This document shows positions 21,761 through 62,197 of a stretch of DNA of 64,000 nucleotides, piece by piece. The notes beneath the pieces were generated by a model that was given only the letters and a program-made list of their open reading frames with translations, was not told where the DNA came from and ran no database searches. Location of the stretch: positions 10,607-74,606 of the forward strand of contig CAYRBI010000003.1 of the NCBI GenBank assembly GCA_964422415.1. The letters are read 5' to 3'. The DNA is from an uncultured bacterium. Lineage in GTDB: Bacteria; Hinthialibacterota; Hinthialibacteria; OLB16. Each line of letters opens with the position of its first letter. The stretch's first letter is position 1. The position numbers were made by a program, and so were the translations under genes.

Positions 21761-24192
21761 TCATTCTCCGCCTTTTCGGTATCCAGCATTAAGCGTTCTC
21801 CATTCCATGCCATTTGAATGGCGCCATCGTAGCGGTTTGTCAGAATGGTGGTACCCACATCCTCAAACCGCTGGAGGGTCTCCAGGGCGGGATGTCCGAA
21901 GAGATTGTCTCCACACTGGATCACCGCAATGGCGGGGTGGATCTTCCGGAGAAATCCGGGACCGGAAGAGAAGCGGCTGCCATGATGGGCTACCTTGAGA
22001 ATATCGCAACTTAGGTTGGGGTACTCCTCAATGATCTCCCTCTCCACATCACCACAGATATCGCCGGGTAGGAGGACCTTTAAACCCGCCTGCTCCACCA
22101 AGAGCACCAGAGAGCGTTCGTTATGGGTTCCAAAGGGGTGCTGGATCTGTTCCATGCCTGGATACAGAACAGTCACAGTGGCATCGCTGATCCCTCCAAT
22201 CCGGTCCCCCGCCAACACCCGTCCGGTGGGTAACTGGCAAGACTTGAGACACCGCGCAAGGTCTTGGAAGGAAGGGCTCTCATTCGTATCTCCCGAGGCC
22301 AGAAGTGTTCCGATAGAGAAGGTATTCAAGACCTGCGGCAGTCCCCCGGCATGATCCGCCTCGGGATGGGTGAGCACGACCGCATCGAGATGACGGATAC
22401 CAAGCGAGAGAAGCGAATCTGTTAACGCACCCAGCTGGTTGGGTAAACCTTGTGTGGGAGGCCCAGTATCGACCAACAGTGTCTCGCCGCGTGGGAACTG
22501 GAGCAGGCAAGCATCCCCCTGGCCCACATCGAGAAAGTGGAGGCGGAATTCCTTGGACTCCGGAAGCAATGGCCACCAAGACAAACAGGCCAGCAGAAAG
22601 AGAGCGGTCACCCTCCGGCTGAGAAGCGGTGGATGAAACCATCCGGTGGGAAGAATCAATACGAGTCCCACCGACAATAATAGGGCAATGGTTACAAGAT
22701 CAGGAGACAAGACCACCTCGAAACCGAAGGACCAGGAGGAGACCCATGTCATTACATCCAAAAGAAGGCGTGACAGGAAATCCAGGGGAACACTCAAGAG
22801 TCCACTCAAACCAGGAAGAAAGGCCAACCCAAAGGCCGACAAAACTCCAAGGACTGTAATCACCTCGGCCACTGGAATCGCCACCAGGTTGGCGAAAACC
22901 GCTTTCCAGGCCACGGTATGAAAGAACCAGGCACTGATGGGCGCGACTGCGATCGTGGCCACCAGACTTACCCACAGTCCTTCACCTAACCGGGATACCG
23001 CACTCACCAGGGAATGTACAAACACACCAGGTTTGATCCATCTCTGGAGGAGAAGCTCGATCTGGAAGGAACGCACACAGTCTGGAAAGCCAGCCAGGAT
23101 CAATGCAGCAACAGTCACGAAGGAGAGCAGGAATCCGGGTTGATGTACCTCGGAGGGAAAGACCACCAGAATGATCAAGCCAGCTGCAGCCAGGAAGTTG
23201 AGGACATCGCCTGGACGGTCTAGGAAGAGCGCGAGCATGAACATGACCCCCATGAGAGTAGCGCGCAACACCGAGACCTGCGCCCCCACTAAGGCCAACA
23301 ACAGGAAAGCCAGCGGAATACCCAACAAGGCCCGCCAGCGCCGTGGTACACACAACAGATTCAGGAAAAGCGGGAGGGTGAACAACACAATAGTCACATT
23401 CAATCCGGAAACAGCGGTCAGATGGTAGAGGCCGGACTCCAACAAGTTGCGGCGGACATCTTCATCCAAATATCCCCGTTCTCCAGTGGTCATCGCCAGT
23501 GCAAGTCCGCCTGGTTGGCCGGGAAGCTGAGAGAGCATCCAGTCACGCACCTTGCCACGCCAGTAATCGCGGGCACGGATCAGCCTGGCCAGAAATGGAA
23601 GGCACTCAGGTTCATCCAGGCGGGTAGGGCCGCCCTTTGCCCTGAAAGTCCCCACCATGCCAGAGGACTGCATCCATCCATGGAGCGCACTCTGTCCCGG
23701 TGAGGAAAGTCCCGCGGATCGCCAGCGTCCTGTCACCTCCACCTGCTGCCCGGCTTCGCCAGCGGGTTGGGAGTGCGTAATGGAAACCACCTCGACTGGC
23801 CCAGACAGAGCCCCCCACTTTTTGCCATCCCACAGGCTGGGTTTTGTCACGCGAGCGCTCCAACGTCCCTCATCGGCCCGCTGGAACTGGGAGGCGAGAA
23901 CACCACGGACATAGGCGGGATCAGTGGCAGTCAGAGAAGCGCTTCGGTCCACTCTTCGCTGATAGGCCTGTTCGGCCAGAGTGTTGCGTAGGAACCCCAG
24001 CACAATCATCGACAACGCGAGGAGACGCAGGAGGTCTTGTTTGCCAGAGCACCGGCCTGATAAAACCGCGCCGAAGAGGACTGTTACAGATACCACAGCC
24101 ACGAGAAGAAGGGATTCCGGACCATGCAGCAGGTCAGCCAGGAGAAGACCGGCCACCCAGGCAAGGAACAGAACCAGCAGCGGCCTTCTCAT
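21748..24192 (-). CDS. comEC: DNA internalization-related competence protein ComEC/Rec2 with metallo-beta-lactamase domain
   Basis: 814 aa. Multi-TM competence domain, then MBL motifs LHFLDVGQGDACLLQFPRGETLLVDTG, VVLTHPEADHAGG and LKVAHHGS. Overlaps rluB by 13 nt. Confidence 0.9.
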   Translation of the reverse strand: MRRPLLVLFLAWVAGLLLADLLHGPESLLLVAVVSVTVLFGAVLSGRCSGKQDLLRLLALSMIVLGFLRNTLAEQAYQRRVDRSASLTATDPAYVRGVLASQFQRADEGRWSARVTKPSLWDGKKWGALSGPVEVVSITHSQPAGEAGQQVEVTGRWRSAGLSSPGQSALHGWMQSSGMVGTFRAKGGPTRLDEPECLPFLARLIRARDYWRGKVRDWMLSQLPGQPGGLALAMTTGERGYLDEDVRRNLLESGLYHLTAVSGLNVTIVLFTLPLFLNLLCVPRRWRALLGIPLAFLLLALVGAQVSVLRATLMGVMFMLALFLDRPGDVLNFLAAAGLIILVVFPSEVHQPGFLLSFVTVAALILAGFPDCVRSFQIELLLQRWIKPGVFVHSLVSAVSRLGEGLWVSLVATIAVAPISAWFFHTVAWKAVFANLVAIPVAEVITVLGVLSAFGLAFLPGLSGLLSVPLDFLSRLLLDVMTWVSSWSFGFEVVLSPDLVTIALLLSVGLVLILPTGWFHPPLLSRRVTALFLLACLSWWPLLPESKEFRLHFLDVGQGDACLLQFPRGETLLVDTGPPTQGLPNQLGALTDSLLSLGIRHLDAVVLTHPEADHAGGLPQVLNTFSIGTLLASGDTNESPSFQDLARCLKSCQLPTGRVLAGDRIGGISDATVTVLYPGMEQIQHPFGTHNERSLVLLVEQAGLKVLLPGDICGDVEREIIEEYPNLSCDILKVAHHGSRFSSGPGFLRKIHPAIAVIQCGDNLFGHPALETLQRFEDVGTTILTNRYDGAIQMAWNGERLMLDTEKAENEWRP

Positions 24193-26213
24193 CCACGTGC
24201 CTGCGTGGCCTGAGCCTTTCTCGCTTCTTCATAACGCGGCTCAAACTGTTCGAGGTACTCGCCCTGTGCCTTGGCGCGCGCCGCCTCGGTGGTCCGTCCC
24301 AGATCATAGAGCAGACGGCTCCGATGGAGGTGGTAGTTGTATTTGACGGGATGCAATGCGATGGCCTGATCGATCTCTTGAAGCGCCTCCTCGCGTCTAT
24401 CCATGCGCGCAAGCACCTCGGCCAGGCTATCATGAAGAAAGCCCGCTGTGGGATTCCAATAGAGCGCGGTGCGCATGCTCCGCTCCGCATCAGGCAAGTT
24501 CCCTATATCCAACAACATCTCACCCAGATAGGAGTGGGCCTCGGCCAGTGGCGGCCAGACCAAAACCGCGCGTTCCAACAAGCGGCCAGTCCGGGGGACA
24601 TCCCGCTGCCTCTCAAAACTATCCGCCGCCTTCTCATAAAGGGCCTGCCCGGCCTCACGAAAAGCACAGGGAATCCCCACTGCTAGAAGGACAATGACGA
24701 CAAGACACGGACGGAGGTGCGAATTGTATGTATCTCCAGGCTGTAATTCTGTTGTTCGCCGGGGGTAAGGTAACGGCAGCTCATCATTCATACAATCTTT
24801 AATGCCGCCACCCCCGGTCCCTGGTGTTGGAGGTTCTTTCTTCATCATCCACCGGGGGCGGTGGCATTGCATCGTAAGCAGACGATTGAAAAACGTTGCC
24901 TTGCCCCCGGCTAACAACAGATTACGGAATGTACCATTGGAACGAGAAAGGATTCTCGTTCCAGCGATGCCGCAGCTGTCCGGCTCCCCCCCCATCCCCG
25001 CGATCACCCCCACAAAACCGGCCAGGTAGAGCATATCCTGATGAAATCCCAGCAATGTTGAAATGAAGAAACAGACCAGAGCGCTGGAGCACCAGACATC
25101 CAAGAGGGTACTCCCACGGAGTGGCAAATTCATTCGCCATACGCGGCGAAAGAACTGAAAAAGCACGATCAACAACAGTACCAATCCCACCGCCCCCATA
25201 TCCGCCATCGTCTCAATCAACAGATTGTGAGCATAGACGGTCTGATGAGTGGTGAGATCACGGAATCTGGGATAATTCGAGCCATACCCTCCGATACCGA
25301 AACCGAGGAGGGGGTTCTCGCGCGCCATACGCAGCCCTGCCTCCCAAAAGACCAGCCGTGCATGAACCGTCTCGGTCCTTGAGAGCATCTCGCGCCCGGT
25401 AGGAGACAGACACAGAACTGTAGCCCCCAGGAAGATGGCGAGGATGACTGCCCAGACCATTCGCATGCCACCTTTCCCCTTCCAAGCCAGCCAGACACAG
25501 ATACCCGCAAACAAGCCCACCAGCGAGGTTCGTGAACGGGTTCCCAATAGGATGTAGACCTGCTCGCACGCCGAAACCAGGCTACCCATGATAAAAACCC
25601 GGGCAGATCGAGAACGCCAGGCCCTCTCCAATAAGACCGGCGTGGCCAACAGGCTCAGACTCAGAAACACCCCCAGGTCGATGGGATTGCCAAAAGGGAA
25701 ATGAAAGCGGTTCTGCGAAGCTGCATGGAGGATGGCTTGCTTGTAGCCCTCATCGTACATCTCCCCCTGAAGGCTTTCCTCCATGACCTCCACCGGGACA
25801 GTCCAGATCGGGTTCACGACCGCGATTGCCGTGGCCAGCCCCCACAGGAGCAAGCAGAAAGCCCAAGGAAAACTGGGCACATGGCGGCACAACTCATGGG
25901 TGATCAGACCGAGTATCAAGGCACATCCCCAGGCCATAAGCAGACCGAAACTCCGGTCCCATTCCGGGGTACGGAGAACCTGAAAAAGAATCCAGGCCCC
26001 GAGCGCCAAGGGTGGCCAGGAGATCCGCCAGTTCACCGCAGCCACCGGGAGCACCCACAATCCCAGTACAAGGGTAGCGGTAAAGAACAGAAACCTTCCC
26101 CAGAAGAACCAGGCTCCCATGATCTCAATGAAGGGGAGGACACAGATAAGGACGAGCAGGAACGAAGCCTGGATCCAACGCTGAAAGGGAGTGCCAAGAG
26201 ATCCGATGGGCAT
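24189..26213 (-). CDS. O-antigen ligase-like (Wzy_C) polytopic membrane protein fused to C-terminal TPR domain
   Basis: About 12 TM segments with a Wzy_C-like loop (LLGTRSRTSLVGLFAGI...HNLLIETMADMG). C-terminal TPR repeats (ALYWNPTAGFLHDSLAEVLARMDRREEALQEIDQAIALHP). 4-nt overlap with comEC. Confidence 0.7.
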   Translation of the reverse strand: MPIGSLGTPFQRWIQASFLLVLICVLPFIEIMGAWFFWGRFLFFTATLVLGLWVLPVAAVNWRISWPPLALGAWILFQVLRTPEWDRSFGLLMAWGCALILGLITHELCRHVPSFPWAFCLLLWGLATAIAVVNPIWTVPVEVMEESLQGEMYDEGYKQAILHAASQNRFHFPFGNPIDLGVFLSLSLLATPVLLERAWRSRSARVFIMGSLVSACEQVYILLGTRSRTSLVGLFAGICVWLAWKGKGGMRMVWAVILAIFLGATVLCLSPTGREMLSRTETVHARLVFWEAGLRMARENPLLGFGIGGYGSNYPRFRDLTTHQTVYAHNLLIETMADMGAVGLVLLLIVLFQFFRRVWRMNLPLRGSTLLDVWCSSALVCFFISTLLGFHQDMLYLAGFVGVIAGMGGEPDSCGIAGTRILSRSNGTFRNLLLAGGKATFFNRLLTMQCHRPRWMMKKEPPTPGTGGGGIKDCMNDELPLPYPRRTTELQPGDTYNSHLRPCLVVIVLLAVGIPCAFREAGQALYEKAADSFERQRDVPRTGRLLERAVLVWPPLAEAHSYLGEMLLDIGNLPDAERSMRTALYWNPTAGFLHDSLAEVLARMDRREEALQEIDQAIALHPVKYNYHLHRSRLLYDLGRTTEAARAKAQGEYLEQFEPRYEEARKAQATQARG

Positions 26214-26992: not shown

Positions 26993-29380
26993 TCAGCCAC
27001 AACGCCGTTCGCGCAAGCTCTTATCGAGTGGTTCACGTAGCACCTGACGGATCGCGCCGAGAGAAGCGATAGGCATCAACAGGAAGCCGGGAATGAGGGT
27101 CCGCAGAAAGTCCCCCGGTTCGGCAACCAGAGTCACGGCGAACCAAGCCTCAGAGACCTTACCATTCAAGAAAACCGCCGTTCCATACCCCACCGGAACC
27201 GCCAACAAGACCGCCAAGGCGCCCAAAACCAACACCTCGAGGATGATCGTCAAGGCCACGGTGGTGTCACTGAATCCCAGAATGCGCAACATCACATACT
27301 CACTTTTGCGCTTGAGGACCGTGAAGGAGACGCTACAGAAGATAAACAGGAGCGCGATGAACACGCTGAAGACCGCACCGATACGGATGATGCCGATCTT
27401 CTCGCCGGTGGTCTCCAGGACCTTGGAGACAATCTCGGACTTGAGGGTCACCTGCGCCACATTGCCTTGCGCCAGAAGCGCTTGACGGACCGCCTCATGA
27501 TCTCCCTCCAGCATCAGGAAGAAGGCCATGCACATATCTCCCATGCCGAGGATCTCCTGCGAGAGCGCGAGGGGCATATAAGCCTCGCCCGGTAAAGCGC
27601 CGGAGAGAATCCCGGCCACTACAACCGGAAACTCCTTGCCGAAATAGTTGATTGTGGCCGGATCGCCCACCTGAAGGCCACACTGACGCGCGAGGTTGCG
27701 TTCTAGAATGACAGAGCGGGTATCCCCCTCCTGCAGGGCACGTCCCTCCAGGATCTCGGGATTGCGGATACCTGATCCCGGGGGAACCCCACCGATGGCG
27801 ATGTTGCCCTTCCCTGCTGGCCCCACCAACCGCGCCGAGAACTTGCAGATGGGGACCGCCTTACGGACTCCCTCGATGGCCTCGTACTGAGCGCCATCCA
27901 CCACATCGACCGGTGCGAAGAGCTCCAGAATGGCATCCCAGGGATCGCCCTCGGTCATGCGGACAGCGGTGGTGGCATTGGAGGTAAGGTTGATGAAGAA
28001 GGAGACAGTCACGCCCAGTCCCATACCCACCGCCAGGATAGTCATTGCAGAGAGCGGTTTATTCCGTAACAGGTTCCGCGCGCCATATCGAAGCCAGACC
28101 TTCCCTGGCAGCCATGCCAGAAGCCGTCCGGCAATCCCCAGATGATCCCCGCCGCCGCGTTCGGTATCCCGCACTGCCTCCATGGGAGTGAGTCTGAGAA
28201 GCCATGTCAATGGCCATAGGGCCGCCAACAACAGCACCAAGGCCACTCCCAGCATTCCCCGTAGAATATGGACAACACCGAGCGAAACCTCCGGAACTGG
28301 GAAACCGATGGATCGGGCATAATTGGAGGCGAACAACGTCGCGGCGGTCCAAGCCACCACCAGCCCCACCAGGATGGCCCCCACCAGGATGCACAGAAGG
28401 GGAACCGAGAATGCCAGGCCAATCCGGACCCGGCCATACCCCATCGCCATCAAGGTTCCAATCTCCCGCCGTTCTTGGGCCACCCACTGGAAGATGAGAA
28501 AGAGGGTGACCAGGAAAGCAGTCAGGTCAAACACGATCACCATCGCCGGAAGGCAGACCCGGAATGCCCTCAGACTGAGTTCGAGAAAACGGCTGCCGAA
28601 CTGTTCGGAGGCGGGAATCACCTGGTCCAACAACAACGCCTTCTCCAGCTCAGATTGGATCGCGGTCTGAACATCCTCCTGATTGGCGCCCGGTTGCATC
28701 GTAACCAGGAGGCTATTGGAAAGGGGGAGCCCAACCCGGTCTTGGATCAATTTCGGGATGGCATAAAGAACTCCAAGTGAACCCTTGGAGGGGATGAAGA
28801 TGCGCGGGTTGGCGGGAGCCAGGAGGAACTCGGCGGACATTCCAATTCCAGCGACCTTCAGGTCATAAGTCTCATCGGCCAGGACCAGTTTCAATGGGTC
28901 CCCAGGATGGAGATGGTGAAAGAGAGCTAGGTTGCGGTCGATGACCACCGCTTCGGGGTGAGTGGGAGCGAGACCGTTGCCCTCCAGGATCTTGATCCGG
29001 TTGATGCGCCCGCCTGTCTCCGGATCGGAGGTGACCAGCATGGAGAACAAGGGGGGGCTGGAGGGGAACTGGAGCTGCCCCGGAAAGGCCAGGCGGTTCT
29101 CAGTTTCAGCGATTCCTGTCACCTTTGTGAGATCAGGCATACGCTGAAGGTCCTCGGGCGCGAAACGGAATTCCAGGCCGGCGAGATTCCCCTCGCTGAA
29201 GGCACGATCGCGTTCAGCCAACAGACTGTCGATAGCCGAGTAAACCCCCACATAAACGCCGAAACCCGCTGCCGCCACCAGGCTGAGGGAGAGGAGGCGG
29301 TAGCGCATTCTCCAGGCGCTACGCAGGACTGTTGTTGTCAGAAGACTCATCCCCGCGGGCCCACCTTCCGCATAGTCCAC
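26993..29380 (-). CDS. ABC transporter permease with two FtsX/MacB-type modules
   Basis: 795 aa with two repeats of (TM - large periplasmic domain - 3 TM), typical of duplicated FtsX-family permeases. Partner of the upstream MacB/LolD-type ATPase. Confidence 0.85.
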   Translation of the reverse strand: MDYAEGGPAGMSLLTTTVLRSAWRMRYRLLSLSLVAAAGFGVYVGVYSAIDSLLAERDRAFSEGNLAGLEFRFAPEDLQRMPDLTKVTGIAETENRLAFPGQLQFPSSPPLFSMLVTSDPETGGRINRIKILEGNGLAPTHPEAVVIDRNLALFHHLHPGDPLKLVLADETYDLKVAGIGMSAEFLLAPANPRIFIPSKGSLGVLYAIPKLIQDRVGLPLSNSLLVTMQPGANQEDVQTAIQSELEKALLLDQVIPASEQFGSRFLELSLRAFRVCLPAMVIVFDLTAFLVTLFLIFQWVAQERREIGTLMAMGYGRVRIGLAFSVPLLCILVGAILVGLVVAWTAATLFASNYARSIGFPVPEVSLGVVHILRGMLGVALVLLLAALWPLTWLLRLTPMEAVRDTERGGGDHLGIAGRLLAWLPGKVWLRYGARNLLRNKPLSAMTILAVGMGLGVTVSFFINLTSNATTAVRMTEGDPWDAILELFAPVDVVDGAQYEAIEGVRKAVPICKFSARLVGPAGKGNIAIGGVPPGSGIRNPEILEGRALQEGDTRSVILERNLARQCGLQVGDPATINYFGKEFPVVVAGILSGALPGEAYMPLALSQEILGMGDMCMAFFLMLEGDHEAVRQALLAQGNVAQVTLKSEIVSKVLETTGEKIGIIRIGAVFSVFIALLFIFCSVSFTVLKRKSEYVMLRILGFSDTTVALTIILEVLVLGALAVLLAVPVGYGTAVFLNGKVSEAWFAVTLVAEPGDFLRTLIPGFLLMPIASLGAIRQVLREPLDKSLRERRCG

Positions 29381-29398
29381 TGAGCTGGGGGTGCAGTA

Positions 29399-29478
29399 AT
29401 GGATTGCCGCTTTCGCGGGAATGTCGATCCACAGTGGACATCCCTCACACTGTCATTCCCGCGAAGGCGGGAATCCAT
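29399..29478. repeat. Nested-palindrome repeat, copy 1 (left arm degenerate)
   Basis: ATGGATTGCCGCTTTCGCGGGAATG ... GTCATTCCCGCGAAGGCGGGAATCCAT. Related to the copies at 35779 and 62051. Lies between the ABC ATPase and permease genes. Confidence 0.8.
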
Positions 29479-29509
29479 ATGAATCCACAGGTTTCTCTTC
29501 ATCATAGGA

Positions 29510-30193
29510 CTACTGGATTTCAGAGACTCGTCCATTATGGAGATAGAAGGTCCGGTTCGTGTGTTTGGACAGGTCCGGGTTGTGTGTGACCAACACAAAG
29601 GTCAGCTGCCGTTCCGCACGGAGTTTGTCGAGGAGTTGGATGACCCGGTCGGCGGTCTCCTCATCCAGGCTACCGGTAGGTTCATCAGCCAACACCAGGG
29701 GCGGCTCTTTGGCCAGCGCACGTGCGATGGCAACCCGCTGTTGTTCACCCCCTGAGAGTTGCTCCGGGAACTTCCAGGCCTTGTCCATCAGGTCCACCTC
29801 CGCGAGGTACTCCTCGGCCATAGAGCGGGCCTTTCGTTGGGGGATCCCGGCCGCCTCTGGCCCCATCATGACATTCTCCAGGGCGGTCAGTGTTGGCATA
29901 AGGTTGTAGAACTGAAAGATGAAGCCGACTTTTTCACGCCGGAAACGGGTATACCCGGCGTTGTCCTTGAGATCGAGACGTTCCCCACAGACCTCCACAG
30001 TTCCAGCGGTGGGACGGTCAATCGCGCCGAGGATATTCAGGAGCGTGGATTTTCCCGAACCAGAGACACCCCGGATAGCGACCGATTCTCCAGCGGAGAT
30101 GGAAAGATCCACATCCTTGAGCACCTCCACCGAAGTCTCACCAAGGGTATATGTTCTGCGTACATCTTGAAGGGATATAATGAAATCTGACAT
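29510..30193 (-). CDS. ABC transporter ATP-binding protein (MacB/LolD-type)
   Basis: Walker A GVSGSGKSTLLNILG, signature LSGGEQQRVAIARAL, Walker B LVLADEPTGSLD. Confidence 0.95.
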   Translation of the reverse strand: MSDFIISLQDVRRTYTLGETSVEVLKDVDLSISAGESVAIRGVSGSGKSTLLNILGAIDRPTAGTVEVCGERLDLKDNAGYTRFRREKVGFIFQFYNLMPTLTALENVMMGPEAAGIPQRKARSMAEEYLAEVDLMDKAWKFPEQLSGGEQQRVAIARALAKEPPLVLADEPTGSLDEETADRVIQLLDKLRAERQLTFVLVTHNPDLSKHTNRTFYLHNGRVSEIQ

Positions 30194-32374: not shown

Positions 32375-35300
32375 TCAGGAGATTGACGAAATAGGAGAGC
32401 CGGGCGGTGTGGTAAACAAATCCGCCTGGCGCTCGATAACCACAACGGCTCTTATCCCACGCAGGCTCTTGAGCCGGTCTAGAAGAACTGTGGAGGGGAC
32501 TACCCGTGGCGACCCAAGCCGCGAGATCAGACGCCGCACCCCTGACCGCTTGATGATCCCCGCGCCGTTCTCAAAAACAAGAGGAATTCCTCGTTCTCCA
32601 CCGGAAAACCATCGTAAAAAGAGAGAGAGTTGTTCGAGTACCTCGGCGGTGGAGTCCTCCAAGACCACCTTAATTTGACTCCAAGACTCACTGGCATTCC
32701 CTAACAGCGCGGGTGTTTCGCATTCCCGCAACAGATACTGGGGGAGGCCCTGCCCGGTGTAGGGGCGCGAACGGACTTCACAGAAGAGCGGCCAAGGCTC
32801 TTTGAGGTGCATCCGGTAGCCATCCAGCCGCGCGGCCTCTGGGATTGGATGAGGGAGAAGGCTGAGCACCTTGCCGGATTCATCCACCACCCGGTAGACA
32901 GTCTCTTGGTTGAAAAGAAGGAAGGTCACCCAAGGTGATTGGGACACACCACCCGGTTGCGGTTCTCCCGCGGTAGCGAACACATCCACCTCATGGACCC
33001 AGCCCATTTGAAGCCAATCCGGCTGCCTGGCAAGACCCCCCTCAGCAAACCATTCCTGGGGAAACCATTCCCGGAAAGGCTCAAGTGGATTCTGGATGAT
33101 TCCCAGGCGCAACAGGCTGAGTTCGAGGTGTTCCTCGTGATGCAGGCTTAAACTATCCGGACCAACAATGGCGGCCGTTGTTGAATGGGCTTGCCCGGGG
33201 CGGACAGGGAAGAGGGTTTGCTGCGCGGCCCCACCGCCCTGAGCACGCAAGGAGAGGTGCCGGGCGCGGGCCTCGGTAAGGAGTGCTCCGGTGTTATGGC
33301 CGAAAGGCTCGAAAACACCCAGACGGATCAGTTGTGAAAGGAGGTTCCAACTCAGCCGGTGTTCAGGCCAGGACTTGAGCCATTCCTCCCACGAGAGATC
33401 CGGTACCGTTGGGGGCGGCTGGAATAGATCCCGTAAACCACCCCCCTGCAAAGAGCTGGGATAGGATGCCTCCAGGTCCATGGAAATCTGCGGTCCCACC
33501 CCAAGGATATTCTGTGTCCCCAAACGAAGCTGCCCTGTAGATGGTGAGAAATCATAACGCCCACCCGGAACCGCGCGAGGCGGGTCGAGCCGCGTGCCGC
33601 GCGCTCTCAGCAGGCTGTAGAGTTCACGGCGATCCTCGGTTTCACCGGGATAGAGGTAAGACAGGATCGCAGTCATTGCCGCGGGATCCCGCGCAAAGGC
33701 ATCGGCCATGGCCAGCAGCTGCTCAGCCTTCCTTAAAAACTCAGGACGGGATGGAAGGGGGTTGGGATTACCCAGGAACTGGACCACCGTTTCCCTTGTG
33801 TTCCGGTCCCACACATGTTGATCCCGGCTGGAGACCGGGTCCGGTTGCGGCCCCCCCTCTTCCAGGGAGAGCCACAGATCCATCTCCTCCGCTGTCAGGC
33901 GAAGAGCAGCGGTTCCCACCTGGTGGATCTGCTCCCGGTAGAGGAGCCAACCTCCCGTTCCTTGAGTGAACCGTTCCAAAGCTGCGCCAACATCCCCACG
34001 GATCCTGGCATCGAGGCCACTCTCATCAGCGGATCTGGTCCAATCCTCCCACCAGGGAGGCACTCCTCCTTCGGAGCGGAGAGGGTGTTCTCTTTGGACT
34101 GCGATCAGACGCAGATTCTCCCGCTGGGTCCAGAAGGACCAATGCCAGGCTAAAGCGAGCAGGTCCGCCAGCTCACCAATGAATGTGGGCATGGCCGCAC
34201 AGATCCACCTCCAGAGGAGCGGACGGTAACCAGTGGAACCGGGAATGGTCAACAGGCGCAGGAGCGATGCTGAAAGGCCGAGAACCTCGATCTTGCCAGT
34301 GTCATCCGCATACCCCTGATCCCGGAAGACCTCGCCGCGATGCTTCTCGATCCAGGTGGTAATCGATTCACGGGATTCTTCGCGGCGGGGCAGGACCGGG
34401 ACAGTGTCCCGGTAAAACGGCGCGCAGGAGAGGGTCTGAGTATTCGATGCCAAGAGCCGCAGAACCAAGGTTCCCACGGTCAGGGCATCGATGGGGTCTG
34501 TGTCCAATTCTGGATACCCGGTTTTCGCGGGCGCGAACACCTGTTCGAGGTTGACCGCAGAGACAATCAGCGAGGCCGGAGCATCACTGGAGGTGGAGCC
34601 TCCCCCTTGATCCAGGAAAGATGGGAGTGGAGGAAGCTTATCCGGGGGATCACCGGGAAATTCCAGATCCTCCCAGTGGGCAAGCAAACGGTAGCCAGCA
34701 TGGACAAGATCCTCATGGTCATCTGGGGCGGGAGCCGCGAAGCCACATCTTCCTTTCCCCAACAGAGCATTGAGAGACGCGAGTACCTCCTGCTCCCATT
34801 GGTGAGGGCAATCCACCTCGACTGGAGCATGAAGAGAGTCTTGAACTCCAGGATGGAAGGAGATGCCTTCATGGTAGGGATCGACACGGGTCAGGCCGAG
34901 GAGATGCGCGAAGAGCGAGGAGGTGGTCCATTCAGCTGTAGGCCGGAGTGTCCCCGGTGGCAGCCCCAGCCGCTTACGAACATCCCACAGGAGAAGCCAC
35001 ACAGTGGGCCAGCGGGTCTGTTTGAGGTATTGGAATTCTTCGACCAGCCGCTCCTTGACCCCTTCCCGGCGGATATGACCGGTGGCGATGGCGGTTTCCT
35101 GACCTAGGGTCCAAAAGAAGGAGGCGGCATCGGTACCCCGTGGAACCGGGTAGACCGGGAAGGTCAAACCACTGTGTTGATAGGGATCGAAGGGTTTGGC
35201 GGTCAGCTTCTCGACACCACGGAAGGCAGGAGTAAGCCCTTGCAGGAGCCTTACCACCCGCTCCGCATGGGGAATACGCCCTGGCAGATCTCTTGAACTG

Positions 35301-36163
35301 GTGACATTTCCCTGCCCCGTAAGCCGTGCGGCACATCCCCAGAAACGGTCATGCTGTGTCCGGTAGGCGGCTTGTACACACGCGAGCGGCGGAATTGGAA
35401 GAGGCGACCGGGAGGGAGAGGTTGTGGCGGTTTCTATAATCCCACCCGTTCGTGAATCAAAACAACAGAGACCTACTTGATCATGTGGCCACTGTTCCAG
35501 AAATGTGGACATCCAAGCAAAGCGTTCTCTGTCTGCACGGTTGGTAGGAATCCGTTGAAGAGCTGATCCAGCCAATCCCGCCACCAGGAAAACTCCCTCA
35601 CAGAAATTCAAAAGAACCTCGGGATGAACACCCTTTTCCGCCGATAGATCCCAGGCTTGTTTGATCTTGAGCAGATTCCGGAAGCCGGCATGGTTGACCG
35701 CAAGCAGGGCGGCCCGCTCACAAGCACAAGCTGGAGTACCATTAGCAATCCGTTGAATAACTCTTTGTTCTTTTGGCACCATGGATTCCCGCCTTCGCGG
35801 GAATGACGATTTCCGAAGAATTTCGCTTATTCTGTCATTCCCGCGAAGGCGGGAATCCATGGTCACGTTCTCTTTCAACAGGCTGTTGGGGGACAGTAAG
35901 AGATCGAAGACATCGGGACTCCGGATCTCTGCTAGGCCTGAAGGGGGTGTAATGAGAACTGTCATCCCGGCCAGACCCAGCATGTGGTTTCTGGCGCAGG
36001 CCTCCAGGAAGCTTGGTCCTCCCTGGAGGGTACCCGTGTCCACCAACGCGGCTACACGGTAGCCCACCTCGGCGGCCGCCTGGACCAGCAGGTTGGGTGG
36101 CACAATCCCCCCCATACGGTCATGGGAGGACTGTAACAGGATAAGGGGCCCATGGTTTGGCAT
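32375..36163 (-). CDS. Highly divergent DnaE (DNA polymerase III alpha)-like protein with degenerate catalytic motifs
   Basis: Collinear with DnaE landmarks (PHP-like N-terminus, LGLTRVDP, KIEVLGL, YREQIHQV...EEMDLW, LGVFEPFG...QQTLFP, OB-like C-terminus), but PDxDxDF is replaced by PVEVDCP. Start chosen at ATG 36163 (AAGGA 9 nt upstream, MPNHGPLILLQSS). The ORF is open to 36217. Confidence 0.75.
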   Translation of the reverse strand: MPNHGPLILLQSSHDRMGGIVPPNLLVQAAAEVGYRVAALVDTGTLQGGPSFLEACARNHMLGLAGMTVLITPPSGLAEIRSPDVFDLLLSPNSLLKENVTMDSRLRGNDRISEILRKSSFPRRRESMVPKEQRVIQRIANGTPACACERAALLAVNHAGFRNLLKIKQAWDLSAEKGVHPEVLLNFCEGVFLVAGLAGSALQRIPTNRADRERFAWMSTFLEQWPHDQVGLCCFDSRTGGIIETATTSPSRSPLPIPPLACVQAAYRTQHDRFWGCAARLTGQGNVTSSRDLPGRIPHAERVVRLLQGLTPAFRGVEKLTAKPFDPYQHSGLTFPVYPVPRGTDAASFFWTLGQETAIATGHIRREGVKERLVEEFQYLKQTRWPTVWLLLWDVRKRLGLPPGTLRPTAEWTTSSLFAHLLGLTRVDPYHEGISFHPGVQDSLHAPVEVDCPHQWEQEVLASLNALLGKGRCGFAAPAPDDHEDLVHAGYRLLAHWEDLEFPGDPPDKLPPLPSFLDQGGGSTSSDAPASLIVSAVNLEQVFAPAKTGYPELDTDPIDALTVGTLVLRLLASNTQTLSCAPFYRDTVPVLPRREESRESITTWIEKHRGEVFRDQGYADDTGKIEVLGLSASLLRLLTIPGSTGYRPLLWRWICAAMPTFIGELADLLALAWHWSFWTQRENLRLIAVQREHPLRSEGGVPPWWEDWTRSADESGLDARIRGDVGAALERFTQGTGGWLLYREQIHQVGTAALRLTAEEMDLWLSLEEGGPQPDPVSSRDQHVWDRNTRETVVQFLGNPNPLPSRPEFLRKAEQLLAMADAFARDPAAMTAILSYLYPGETEDRRELYSLLRARGTRLDPPRAVPGGRYDFSPSTGQLRLGTQNILGVGPQISMDLEASYPSSLQGGGLRDLFQPPPTVPDLSWEEWLKSWPEHRLSWNLLSQLIRLGVFEPFGHNTGALLTEARARHLSLRAQGGGAAQQTLFPVRPGQAHSTTAAIVGPDSLSLHHEEHLELSLLRLGIIQNPLEPFREWFPQEWFAEGGLARQPDWLQMGWVHEVDVFATAGEPQPGGVSQSPWVTFLLFNQETVYRVVDESGKVLSLLPHPIPEAARLDGYRMHLKEPWPLFCEVRSRPYTGQGLPQYLLRECETPALLGNASESWSQIKVVLEDSTAEVLEQLSLFLRWFSGGERGIPLVFENGAGIIKRSGVRRLISRLGSPRVVPSTVLLDRLKSLRGIRAVVVIERQADLFTTPPGSPISSIS
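35779..35862. repeat. Nested-palindrome repeat, copy 2, inside the DnaE-like coding sequence (in frame)
   Basis: 35779-35807 (CCATGGATTCCCGCCTTCGCGGGAATGAC) is the exact reverse complement of 35834-35862. Translated in the host frame as MDSRLRGNDRISEILRKSSFPRRRESM. Confidence 0.85.
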
Positions 36164-36317
36164 ACACGGGAATCCTTGGGAAAAGGGAGCAAAATGACAA
36201 GACACCCCCATTCCCATATACTGCTCGAGCCGGTATAGTCACTTTCAACACCGGGCCCATGAGGATGCAGGATTTCCCCATGCGGCTCAAGACAGGCCGA
36301 TTTCCCCGGAGTAAAAA

Positions 36318-40763: not shown

Positions 40764-40860
40764 CCCCCCCACCCTCCCCCGCCAGGGGGGAGGGGGCAGA
40801 ACACGCTAAAGCGTGAACAACTTGCAACGCCCTCCCCCCTGGCGGGGGAGGGTGGGGGGG
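40764..40860. repeat. Composite palindrome: 31-bp perfect inverted repeat of the C/G-homopolymer element enclosing a CACGC-TAAA-GCGTG mini-hairpin
   Basis: 40764-40794 (CCCCCCCACCCTCCCCCGCCAGGGGGGAGGG) is the exact reverse complement of 40830-40860. The 35-nt loop contains CACGCTAAAGCGTGAACAAC (40802-40821). Confidence 0.85.
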
Positions 40861-62008: not shown

Positions 62009-62050
62009 CAGGTCTTCAGCGGTCTATTGAAAAAAAAACAGTTGCGATGA

Positions 62051-62138
62051 GACCATGGATTCCCGCTTTCGCGGGAATGACGATTTCCATTAAAAATCCC
62101 CTGATCCGTCATTCCCGCGAAAGCGGGAATCCATGGTC
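62051..62138. repeat. Nested-palindrome repeat, copy 3 (perfect 32-bp terminal inverted repeats)
   Basis: GACCATGGATTCCCGCTTTCGCGGGAATGACG (62051-62082) is the exact reverse complement of 62107-62138, with a 24-nt AT-richer centre. Each arm is itself a hairpin (ATTCCCGC-TTTC-GCGGGAAT). Confidence 0.9.
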
Positions 62139-62197
62139 GCGGGACTTTCCCAACCAACGGATAGGGCAGTAGTTGGCCTTTACAGGCTCAGAATCTT

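What the first reader, a model, noticed from the sequence alone, without database searches (positions are those of the whole stretch)
35779..35862. Palindromic repeat element inserted inside the DnaE-like gene and read through in frame on either strand
35779-35807 is the exact reverse complement of 35834-35862, and the element belongs to the family also seen at 29399 and 62051. On the coding (minus) strand it contributes ...LLKENVT-MDSRLRGNDRISEILRKSSFPRRRESM-VPKEQRV.... This lies in the variable loop of the PHP-like domain just before LLAVNHAGFRNLL, which aligns with E. coli LTVLAANNTGYQNLT. The segment is stop-free and a multiple of three (84 bp), so the host ORF survives. Because the element is a palindrome, the plus strand is also open and encodes nearly the same peptide (ORF 35781..36062 begins MDSRLRGNDDFRRISLILSFPRRRESMV). 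This looks like a MITE/REP-like element tolerated as a ~27-aa protein insertion.
Basis: seen in the sequence. Interest (0 to 1): 0.55.

Follow-up and report, generated by a model that had tools for sequence, protein, structure and literature searches.

The report
Hairpin repeat inserted in-frame in gene
A 144-base palindromic repeat, built from two copies of a hairpin motif known as the target of Ssn single-strand DNA nucleases, has landed inside a DNA-polymerase-like gene in its only stop-free reading frame. It adds 48 amino acids to a loop, which is a known kind of event (as in Rickettsia) seen here in an uncultivated lineage.

Summary
The palindrome is real: the arms 35778-35807 and 35834-35863 are 30 nt long and 100% complementary. 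The same arm occurs in three elements in the window, where none is expected by chance.

All seven orthologues (34-65% identity, two of them syntenic) lack exactly 47-48 codons at this site. The mobile unit is therefore 35744-35887 (144 nt). It consists of an outer 14-nt inverted repeat, two perfect 30-nt arms and a 26-nt spacer.

Only one of the element's six frames is stop-free, and the host gene reads that frame. The same frame is read in a Wzy_C-type protein, whose closest relative lacks about 47 residues there, and in a BlaR1-like protein.

The arms match the published NTS/SRM hairpin (CGTCATTCCCGCGMAVGCGGGAATCYRG). That motif is the ssDNA target of Ssn GIY-YIG nucleases and an extension of Neisseria dRS3. 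No nuclease or transposase gene lies in the window, and no target-site duplication is visible.

The host is a very divergent DnaE homologue. The insert sits in a length-variable PHP-domain loop, just before the strand that aligns with E. coli LTVLAANNTGYQNL.

Verdict: a genuine in-frame insertion that behaves like a Rickettsia palindromic element. It is a new member of a known kind and of moderate interest.

The parts
35744..35887 (-). Whole inserted element, 144 nt (48 codons). On the coding strand it encodes NSLLKENVTMDSRLRGNDRISEILRKSSFPRRRESMVPKEQRVIQRIA. Boundaries are good to about 3 nt.
   Evidence: The orthologue gap is exactly 48 codons between the anchors DVFDL and ER.A.LA. In the four-copy alignment, identity falls from 0.49-0.93 inside the element to 0.21-0.29 outside these coordinates. 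The unit folds as one long hairpin: RNA -75.8 kcal/mol with z = -11.0, DNA -46.2 kcal/mol with z = -10.7.
35874..35887 (.). Outer terminal inverted repeat. Plus strand TTCAACAGGCTGTT, coding strand AACAGCCTGTTGAA.
   Evidence: It pairs with 35744-35757 in the predicted fold, with 10 of 14 positions complementary. It is conserved in c62051, c29399 and the L242 copy.
35834..35863 (+). Inner arm. It is an NTS/SRM hairpin in forward orientation on the plus strand (TGTCATTCCCGCGAAGGCGGGAATCCAT), 2 mismatches from the NTS consensus.
35808..35833 (.). 26-nt spacer between the arms. Its sequence varies between copies, with mean pairwise identity 0.53.
35778..35807 (-). Inner arm. It is an NTS hairpin in forward orientation on the minus (coding) strand (CGTCATTCCCGCGAAGGCGGGAATCCAT at 35781-35808). 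With 1 mismatch from the NTS consensus it meets the published search criterion.
   Evidence: NTS definition read
35744..35757 (.). Outer terminal inverted repeat, plus strand AGCAATCCGTTGAA.
32375..36217 (-). Host gene, a divergent DnaE-like (PHP plus Pol III alpha palm) protein. The ORF is 1280 aa; the start used in the public protein P0001 is at 36163 (1262 aa).
   Evidence: Its neighbours (HMGL-like, esterase, MBOAT) are syntenic with L120 and L121.
29369..29512 (-). Second copy of the element (144 nt, decayed arms). It lies between the ABC ATPase gene and the FtsX permease gene.
   Evidence: The spacer between the genes is 159 nt here and 18 nt in the orthologous locus L120.
62018..62162 (-). 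Third copy of the element (145 nt, perfect 32-nt arms). It is intergenic, between convergent FG-GAP and BNR genes.

Best explanation
A non-autonomous palindromic repeat of about 144 bp was inserted into the DnaE-like gene after this lineage split from its closest sequenced relatives.

Structure. The core is two inverted, perfectly complementary copies of the NTS/SRM hairpin (ATTCCCGC-GAAG-GCGGGAAT, with GTC on the 5' side and C on the 3' side). These arms flank a 26-nt spacer. The whole is bracketed by a weaker 14-nt outer inverted repeat.

Why the gene survives. The unit is 48 codons long and landed in the one orientation and frame in which it has no stop codon. The gene therefore stays open and gains a 48-residue, net-basic peptide (12 K+R, 6 D+E). 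The peptide lies in a length-variable loop of the degenerate PHP domain, between two confidently modelled beta strands.

Shown here: the palindrome, the family, the insertion relative to orthologues, the frame, the loop position, and reuse of the same frame in other proteins.

Inferred: in-gene copies are the survivors of a filter that removes insertions in the other five frames. Movement goes through a single-stranded hairpin intermediate, linked to an Ssn-type GIY-YIG nuclease or another hairpin-recognising enzyme encoded elsewhere in the genome. The extra peptide is tolerated rather than useful.
For: - Palindrome and family: 0 matches expected by chance.
- Insertion: seven orthologues lack 47-48 residues at this site. 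Two of them are positional orthologues with conserved neighbours, and both have 12 residues where the window has 60.
- Lineage: about 30 kb of those relatives holds no NTS or dRS3 motif, against six arms in the window.
- Boundaries: a four-copy alignment gives identity of 0.88-0.93 in the arms, 0.53 in the spacer, 0.49-0.54 in the outer parts and 0.21-0.29 in the flanks.
- A second copy shows the same pattern: the ABC ATPase-permease spacer is 159 nt here and 18 nt in L120.
- Frame: only one of six frames is open, and it is the one the host uses.
- Same peptide frame elsewhere: P0009 shares 41 of 51 residues with the insert, and its closest relative P0011 is about 47 aa shorter at that site. 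The peptide also appears in P0038 and P0036.
- NTS identity: three of six arms are within 1 mismatch of CGTCATTCCCGCGMAVGCGGGAATCYRG, and five of six match the SRM pattern. The positions reported as critical for SsnA, GTC upstream of the palindrome and C downstream of it, are present (text read).
- Ssn association in other loci: single-domain GIY-YIG ORFs of 92-98 aa lie 13-82 nt from exact arms in L056, L167, L200 and L211. One more lies in an Omnitrophota contig, L076.
- Loop position: profile alignment to M. tuberculosis and E. coli DnaE. In the AlphaFold model, strands 62-71 and 149-155 (pLDDT 86-89) flank a stretch with pLDDT below 50 that contains the insert.
Against: - No GIY-YIG, RAYT or transposase gene was found in the 64-kb window, so the mobilising enzyme is not identified.
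- In the published NTS-ssnA-NTS arrangement, and in most doublets elsewhere, the GTCA ends point outward. Here they point inward, and there is a separate outer repeat. The element is therefore not a simple deletion derivative of an ssn cassette.
- Transcription, translation and activity of the interrupted gene are untested.
- The structural model is poor overall (mean pLDDT 51).
- The insertion may be recent, given the perfect arms, and could be mildly harmful rather than tolerated in the long term.
Confidence: 0.8

Rival explanations
1. It is a classical MITE. A DDE transposase encoded elsewhere recognises the outer inverted repeat (AACAGCCTGTTGAA) and moves the unit. The NTS arms are passenger sequence or a structural hairpin.
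For: The outer inverted repeat is conserved in all four DNA copies, and every copy has the same length of 144-145 nt. The element is small, non-coding and present in multiple copies.
Against: No target-site duplication is visible at any of the three window copies. The inner arms are far better conserved (0.88-0.93) than the supposed transposase-binding ends (0.49-0.54). No transposase gene lies in the window.
Confidence: 0.2
2. It is a REPIN: a REP doublet mobilised by a RAYT (an IS200/IS605-type Y1 transposase).
For: It consists of two inverted hairpin repeats with a variable spacer. It has no target-site duplication, and it forms a long hairpin as single-stranded DNA. These are the features of REPINs.
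Against: REPs linked to RAYTs usually carry a 5' GT[AG]G, whereas these arms start with GTCA. No Y1 transposase gene lies in the window. The motif has a published partner of a different family, Ssn (GIY-YIG), and such genes sit next to the arms in the fetched loci.
Confidence: 0.08
3. The 48 residues are ancestral and were deleted in the relatives, or they arose by ordinary loop expansion. No mobile element was inserted.
For: The loop varies in length among DnaE proteins: E. coli has a gap there and M. tuberculosis a longer loop.
Against: Seven orthologues spanning 34-65% identity would all need the same deletion. The segment is a copy of a repeat found twice more in the window, in L242, and in unrelated proteins. 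It is a 30-bp perfect palindrome, which coding sequence does not produce by chance.
Confidence: 0.02
4. The insertion has inactivated the gene, or the insertion is an assembly artefact. The open frame would then be a recent accident or a collapsed repeat.
For: The perfect arms suggest a recent event. Repeats can mislead assemblers of metagenome bins. A 30-bp perfect RNA duplex inside the mRNA could attract RNase III or stall ribosomes.
Against: The ORF is intact over 1280 codons, 65% identical to P0002 along its whole length, and keeps every residue that is invariant in the family. Both flanks belong to the same gene, collinear and in frame. The public annotation calls one 1262-aa protein (P0001).
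Confidence: 0.08
5. The insertion is functional. It would act either as a recombination or transformation control site inside the gene, as NTS sites act near Neisseria genes, or as a useful basic loop on the protein.
For: In Neisseria, NTS repeats modulate the integration of transforming DNA through SsnA. The arms are strongly conserved relative to the rest of the element.
Against: The relatives manage without it. The other copies are intergenic and partly decayed. [quoted passage not shown]
Confidence: 0.07

Closest known systems
NTS / SRM hairpin repeats, the targets of Ssn (SsnA) GIY-YIG single-strand DNA nucleases (Chenal et al. 2025, Nat Commun 16:2388, PMC11893778)
   Same: The arms fit the 28-nt NTS consensus CGTCATTCCCGCGMAVGCGGGAATCYRG with 1-2 mismatches. 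They keep the hairpin, the upstream GTC and the downstream C. The motif is multi-copy and spread across phyla, and single-domain GIY-YIG genes sit beside it in other loci.
   Different: The paper describes single hairpins, mostly intergenic (2% inside genes in N. meningitidis) and often flanking ssnA with the GTCA ends outward. Here two arms face inward inside a 144-nt unit that has its own outer inverted repeat. The unit lies inside a coding gene, and no ssn gene lies within 64 kb.
Neisseria dRS3 repeats and neisserial intergenic mosaic elements (NIMEs)
   Same: Five of the six arms carry the exact dRS3 pattern ATTCCC-N8-GGGAAT. BLAST of the element hits N. gonorrhoeae over 65% of its length at 74% identity. 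As in NIMEs, a variable segment is bracketed by inverted dRS3-type repeats.
   Different: NIMEs are intergenic arrays in Neisseria. This is a discrete 144-nt unit in an Omnitrophota/OLB16-like lineage, and it is read as protein.
Rickettsia palindromic elements (RPEs; Ogata et al. 2000, summarised in the MITE review PMC10969869)
   Same: Both are palindromic repeats of about 150 bp that are inserted in frame into unrelated genes. Both add a conserved peptide while the host gene stays open. A Rickettsia endosymbiont in the fetched loci carries a doublet of the same arms in frame in IleRS.
   Different: The taxon differs, and so do the spacer and the outer sequence. Similarity to the ten defined RPE families was not tested. 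Only a few in-gene copies of this family are known.
REPINs / BIMEs mobilised by RAYT transposases
   Same: Both are inverted doublets of a short hairpin repeat with a variable spacer. Both lack a target-site duplication and form a long hairpin as single-stranded DNA.
   Different: The arms lack the 5' GT[AG]G signature. No RAYT gene was found. The motif's known partner is a GIY-YIG nuclease, not a Y1 transposase.
Bacterial MITEs with in-frame insertions (Correia, ERIC, Nezha and others)
   Same: They share the size, the terminal inverted repeats, the multiple copies, the lack of coding capacity and the occasional in-frame fusion with host ORFs.
   Different: No target-site duplication is seen and no parent IS is known. 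Conservation is highest in the internal hairpins rather than at the termini.

Membership tests
NTS (Neisseria transformation sequence) / SRM | 28-nt motif CGTCATTCCCGCGMAVGCGGGAATCYRG with at most 1 mismatch (the criterion used in the paper) | tested here: met
   Three of six arms pass: 35781-35808(-), 62055-62082(-) and 62107-62134(+). The other three have 2-3 mismatches. Shuffles give 0 matches. Five of six arms match the degenerate SRM pattern.
NTS / SRM | Hairpin-forming palindrome (dRS3 core ATTCCC-N8-GGGAAT) with an oriented flank: GTC on the 5' side and C on the 3' side, reported as critical for SsnA cleavage and binding | tested here: met
   Five of six arms have the exact dRS3 core. 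GTC and C are present in five of six arms. Their importance is taken from the paper.
NTS / SRM | Genomic association with a single-domain GIY-YIG (cd10448, ssn) gene | tested here: inconclusive
   The 64-kb window has none by motif scan, tblastn or Pfam on small ORFs. The rest of the genome is not available. In other fetched loci such genes lie 13-82 nt from exact arms: L056, L167, L200 and L211.
NTS / SRM | Bound and cut by the cognate Ssn enzyme as single-stranded DNA only | not testable with these tools
   This needs the enzyme from this genome and oligonucleotide assays.
MITE | Small, non-coding and multi-copy, with terminal inverted repeats | tested here: met
   The unit is 144-145 nt, with three copies in the window and one in L242. 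The outer 14-nt repeat is 10/14 complementary and the inner 30-nt arms are perfect.
MITE | Target-site duplication flanking each copy | tested here: not met
   The flank pairs are ccatt/ggggg, tcttc/agggc and ccttc/ctgga. No direct repeat is present at the boundaries supported by the four-copy alignment.
MITE | A parent IS element with the same ends | not testable with these tools
   No transposase gene lies in the window. The whole genome is not available.
REP / REPIN | 5' GT[AG]G tetranucleotide on each REP, and a RAYT gene flanked by REPs | tested here: not met
   The arms begin with GTCA. No Y1 transposase gene lies in the window, though the genome-wide check could not be done.
Rickettsia palindromic elements | Palindromic unit of about 100-150 bp, inserted in frame in unrelated genes, encoding a conserved peptide | tested here: met
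   The peptide appears in frame in the DnaE-like protein, in the Wzy_C-type P0009 and in the BlaR1-like P0038, always in the same frame.
Rickettsia palindromic elements | Sequence membership in one of the defined RPE families of Rickettsia | not tested
   No RPE consensus sequences were at hand. The host lineage is not Rickettsia: the closest named hit is Candidatus Omnitrophica.
DnaE / C-family polymerase alpha subunit (host gene) | PHP domain plus Pol III alpha palm, scoring above the curated family thresholds | tested here: inconclusive
   As a single sequence it scores PHP 19.5 bits (cut-off 26.4), DNA_pol3_alpha 11.7 bits (cut-off 23.9) and TIGR00594 24.8 bits (cut-off 434). The family profile hits M. 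tuberculosis DnaE1 at E = 7.5e-16 and E. coli, Taq and PolC structures. Foldseek top hits are DnaE. The catalytic D-x-D stretch aligns with E-V-[DE]-C-P.
Intein | Hint or intein splicing domain in the inserted segment | tested here: not met
   A Pfam scan of the whole protein at E up to 1 returns only PHP and DNA_pol3_alpha. The insert is 48 residues long and is encoded by a DNA palindrome.

The most novel reading that the evidence does not exclude
Doublets of the NTS/SRM hairpin would form a class of mobile elements spread across bacteria and moved by Ssn-type GIY-YIG single-strand nucleases. Like the Rickettsia palindromic elements, they would keep one stop-free frame and so persist inside essential genes. 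The RPE phenomenon would then be one local case of a general one. Examples seen here are the DnaE-like gene in this window, a Mur ligase in Massilia and IleRS in a Rickettsia endosymbiont. The near-identity of the 25-30-nt arm across phyla, including candidate-phyla-radiation (CPR) bacteria, would reflect constraint by the enzyme together with horizontal spread.
Probability: 0.25. Interest if true: 0.7.

Novelty: new member of a known kind. Interest (0 to 1): 0.4.

Why it matters
In-frame colonisation of genes by palindromic repeats is best known from Rickettsia. It shows how selfish DNA can add peptide segments to proteins without destroying them. This case puts the same behaviour in an uncultivated Omnitrophota/OLB16-like lineage. 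It also ties the behaviour to a hairpin motif whose protein partner, the Ssn ssDNA nuclease, was described only in 2025 and was reported as rarely intragenic.

If the link holds, it makes several questions directly testable:
- whether Ssn enzymes mobilise these repeats;
- why the hairpin arms stay nearly invariant while the rest of the element drifts;
- how often proteins gain loops in this way.

For annotation there are two practical points. The 'MDSRLRGND / SFPRRRES / VIPAKAGI / WIPAFAGMT' peptides in predicted proteins are translations of this repeat. Small ORFs made only of them, such as 35781..36062, are not genes.

Tried and rejected
- Protein search with the 51-aa insert peptide: only 4 candidates and nothing useful, because the query is too short for the word index.
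- Look-ups of encoding contigs for P0001, P0009, P0035, P0036, P0038 and the window's ABC ATPase: none on record. The DNA of the second in-frame copy and the source genome could therefore not be read.
- Rfam, whole window at gathering thresholds: no family matched.
- Literature search for the six-frame peptides: 0 papers. The DNA-string search is what found the Ssn paper.
- PDB search with the N-terminus as a single sequence: no hit. The family profile was needed.
- GIY-YIG, RAYT or transposase genes in the window: none found by motif scan, tblastn with four Ssn-like proteins, or Pfam on small and large ORFs.
- A search for another full 144-nt copy among 241 fetched loci found only core doublets. 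The L242 copy came later, through P0037.
- CRISPR repeat or integron attC site: considered and dropped. The region has no direct-repeat array, and the unit sits singly inside a gene.
- Intein: dropped.
- NCBI taxonomy has no entry for 'OLB16'.
Full report
**Observation.** The region contains a perfect inverted repeat. The arms are 35778-35807 and 35834-35863: 30 nt, 100% complementary, 26 nt apart. Each arm is itself a small hairpin, ATTCCCGC-GAAG-GCGGGAAT. The arm motif occurs six times in the window at up to 3 mismatches, as three inverted pairs near 29400, 35780 and 62055. None is expected from dinucleotide shuffles. The minus-strand ORF 32375..36217 (1280 aa) reads straight through the repeat.

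**It is an insertion, and larger than reported.** A protein search found one identical public protein (P0001, 1262 aa) and seven homologues at 34-65% identity. In the alignment, all seven lack 47-48 residues exactly where the window has SLLKENVT-MDSRLRGND-RISEILRKS-SFPRRRESM-VPKEQRVIQRIAN.

The two closest homologues come from contigs with the same neighbours as the window (HMGL-like, esterase, MBOAT and others). They are therefore positional orthologues. Between the conserved anchors DVFDL and ER.A.LA the window has 60 residues and both orthologues have 12, a difference of 48 codons or 144 nt.

The 84-nt palindrome is only the core. Outside it lies a second, weaker inverted repeat: AGCAATCCGTTGAA at 35744-35757 and TTCAACAGGCTGTT at 35874-35887. 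Together they delimit exactly 144 nt.

Four DNA copies were aligned: the three in the window and one in L242, from NCBI assembly GCA_964481775.1. Mean pairwise identity by region is as follows:

| Region | Mean pairwise identity |
|---|---|
| Arms | 0.88-0.93 |
| Spacer | 0.53 |
| Outer parts | 0.49-0.54 |
| Flanks | 0.21-0.29 (random level) |

Homologous boundaries give 145 nt for the copy at 62018-62162 and 144 nt for the copy at 29369-29512. The second of these is itself an insertion relative to L120: the gap between the ABC ATPase and permease genes is 159 nt here and 18 nt there. About 30 kb of the relatives contains no such motif at all. The whole unit folds as one long hairpin. As RNA the energy is -75.8 kcal/mol (z = -11.0), and as DNA -46.2 kcal/mol (z = -10.7).

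**Reading frame.** Over the full 144 nt, only one of the six frames has no stop codon, and the host gene uses that frame.

The same frame is read in other proteins:
- P0009, a 1040-aa Wzy_C-type protein, shares 41 of 51 residues with the insert, including the outer parts. Its closest relative, P0011 (59% identity), is about 47 residues shorter at that site.
- P0038, a BlaR1-like protein, carries the peptide internally.
- P0036 carries it at the N-terminus.

The simplest reading is a survival filter: insertions into genes in any other frame or orientation truncate the protein and are lost. No target-site duplication is visible at any of the three window copies.

**What the arms are.** The hits span many phyla and include cultured isolates.

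A full-text search for the DNA string led to Chenal et al. 2025 (PMC11893778). That paper reports the following:
- It defines the 28-nt NTS, CGTCATTCCCGCGMAVGCGGGAATCYRG, as an extension of the Neisseria dRS3 repeat ATTCCC-N8-GGGAAT.
- SsnA, a 94-aa GIY-YIG protein, binds and cuts the NTS only as single-stranded DNA.
- Related 'SRM' hairpins accompany Ssn genes in many bacteria.
- NTS repeats are rarely inside genes.
- NTS-ssnA-NTS resembles an insertion sequence.

By the paper's own criterion of at most 1 mismatch, three of the six arms in the window are NTS. Five of six match the SRM pattern, and five of six carry the exact dRS3 core.

In the fetched loci I found single-domain GIY-YIG ORFs of 92-98 aa (PF01541) lying 13-82 nt from exact arms in L056, L167, L200 and L211. 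Another lies in an Omnitrophota contig, L076. L167 also carries an inward-facing doublet like the one in the window, directly beside the ssn-like gene. The window itself has no GIY-YIG, RAYT or transposase gene.

Most doublets elsewhere have the GTCA ends pointing outward, whereas the window family has them pointing inward and adds a separate outer repeat. The element is therefore not simply an ssn cassette that lost its gene.

**Host gene and position of the insert.** As a single sequence the protein scores below the Pfam and NCBIfam thresholds for PHP and Pol III alpha. A profile of the family hits M. tuberculosis DnaE1 (E = 7.5e-16) and the E. coli, Taq and PolC structures. Foldseek with the model also ranks DnaE structures first.

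The profile alignment places the insert in the loop before the strand that aligns with M. tuberculosis THLTMMAENATGLRNLFKL and E. coli THLTVLAANNTGYQNL.

The AlphaFold model is poor overall (mean pLDDT 51). Even so, it shows confident strands at 62-71 and 149-155 (pLDDT 86-89) on either side of a stretch with pLDDT below 50, which contains the insert at model residues 94-141. The inserted peptide is net basic, with 12 K+R and 6 D+E. The lineage is uncultivated: the closest named homoserine dehydrogenase is from 'Candidatus Omnitrophica' at 71% identity, and one orthologue's contig is labelled p_OLB16.

**How it most likely works.**
- Shown: a 144-nt palindromic repeat built on two NTS/SRM hairpins was inserted in frame into a variable loop, and the gene stays intact.
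- Inferred: the unit moves through a single-stranded hairpin intermediate, using an Ssn-type or other hairpin-specific enzyme encoded elsewhere. In-gene copies are the survivors of frame selection. The peptide is tolerated rather than useful.
- Why I favour a hairpin-recognising enzyme over a DDE transposase acting on the outer ends: the arms are far better conserved than the rest of the element, and there is no target-site duplication. This step remains unproven.

**Rival readings.** Each is set out in its own section. They are a classical MITE, a REPIN with a RAYT, an ancestral loop, a dead gene or assembly artefact, and a functional site.

**Comparison with what is known.** The behaviour is that of the Rickettsia palindromic elements: palindromes of about 150 bp inserted in frame into unrelated genes.

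Two independent in-frame doublets of the same arms turned up in the fetched loci:
- one inside the Mur_ligase_M domain of a Mur ligase in Massilia sp. LXY-6 (L018);
- one between the anticodon-binding domain and DUF5915 of IleRS in a Rickettsia endosymbiont (L111).

An arm also lies under ileS in a Sphingopyxis record. Across all fetched loci the arms are depleted from long open frames: 30% sit in stop-free stretches of at least 200 codons, against 78% of random positions. They are not absent from such stretches, however.

In sequence terms, the arms belong to the NTS/SRM (dRS3) family. The composite 144-nt unit, with inward-facing arms and an outer repeat, is not described in the papers I could read.

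**Verdict.** It needs corrections on the size, on the frames and on the identity of the repeat. It is a new member of a known kind and of moderate interest.

Noticed in passing
window:24748-24921 (inside ORF 24189..26213, minus strand): A second, unrelated nested palindrome lies in frame inside the Wzy_C/TPR gene. Its outer arms are 28 nt (89% complementary) and its inner arms 18 nt (89%). The syntenic orthologue in L120 is about 50 residues shorter in this region. It looks like another in-frame repeat insertion in the same genome. It is single-copy in the window.
   Followed up: partly
window:29369-29512: The decayed copy of the element sits between the ABC ATPase gene and the FtsX permease gene, inside what is an 18-nt gap in L120. 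Under the homologous boundaries, its first three bases on the minus strand are the TAG stop codon of the ATPase gene. That gene ends ...SEIQ* here and ...SEV* in L120.
   Followed up: partly
window:38094-38148 and 40764-40860: Two further perfect palindromes of a G/C-rich type (CCCTCCCCC...GGGGGAGGG), with arms of 25 and 31 nt, lie in intergenic gaps. The genome carries several families of hairpin repeats.
   Followed up: no
window:32375-36217: The host belongs to a small, syntenic family of very divergent DnaE homologues; one member is named 'PHP domain-containing protein [Candidatus Omnitrophica]'. The stretch aligned with the catalytic PD-x-D-x-DF of DnaE reads x-E-V-[DE]-C-P, and the PHP H-x-H is absent. 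Whether the family polymerises DNA is open.
   Followed up: partly
L018:1562-1643 (Massilia sp. LXY-6); L111:1642-1769 (Rickettsia endosymbiont of Polydrusus tereticollis): Doublets of the same hairpin arm are read in frame inside a Mur ligase (within Mur_ligase_M) and inside IleRS (between Anticodon_1 and DUF5915). An arm also lies under ileS in a Sphingopyxis indica record (hit H9).
   Followed up: partly
L056:4482-4775; L167:439-717; L200:10723-11013; L211:6705-6992; L076:7260-7535: Single-domain GIY-YIG ORFs (92-98 aa, PF01541) of the Ssn type lie 13-82 nt from exact arms in four loci. In L056 the gene is flanked by arms on both sides. One such gene is in an Omnitrophota contig.
   Followed up: partly
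loci L001-L119 and L122-L241: Exact 25-nt and 30-nt versions of the arm occur across very distant phyla: Proteobacteria, Bacteroidota, Chloroflexota, Planctomycetota, Nitrospirota, Acidobacteriota, and candidate-phyla-radiation (CPR) groups such as Paceibacteria and Saccharibacteria. Variants with compensatory stem changes (GTCACCCCCGCGAAAGCGGGGGTCC, GTCATCCCCGCGCAGGCGGGGATCC) sit next to them.
   Followed up: partly
window:35781-36062 (plus strand): The 93-aa antisense ORF that starts MDSRLRGND is produced by the palindrome and lies wholly inside the host gene. Similar small ORFs made of the repeat are present in public protein sets (P0035, P0037). These are most likely annotation artefacts.
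   Followed up: partly
L004:4525-4661: A contig labelled as a Klebsiella pneumoniae MAG carries the arms in a strongly AT-rich context that looks unlike Klebsiella. It may be mis-binned.
   Followed up: no
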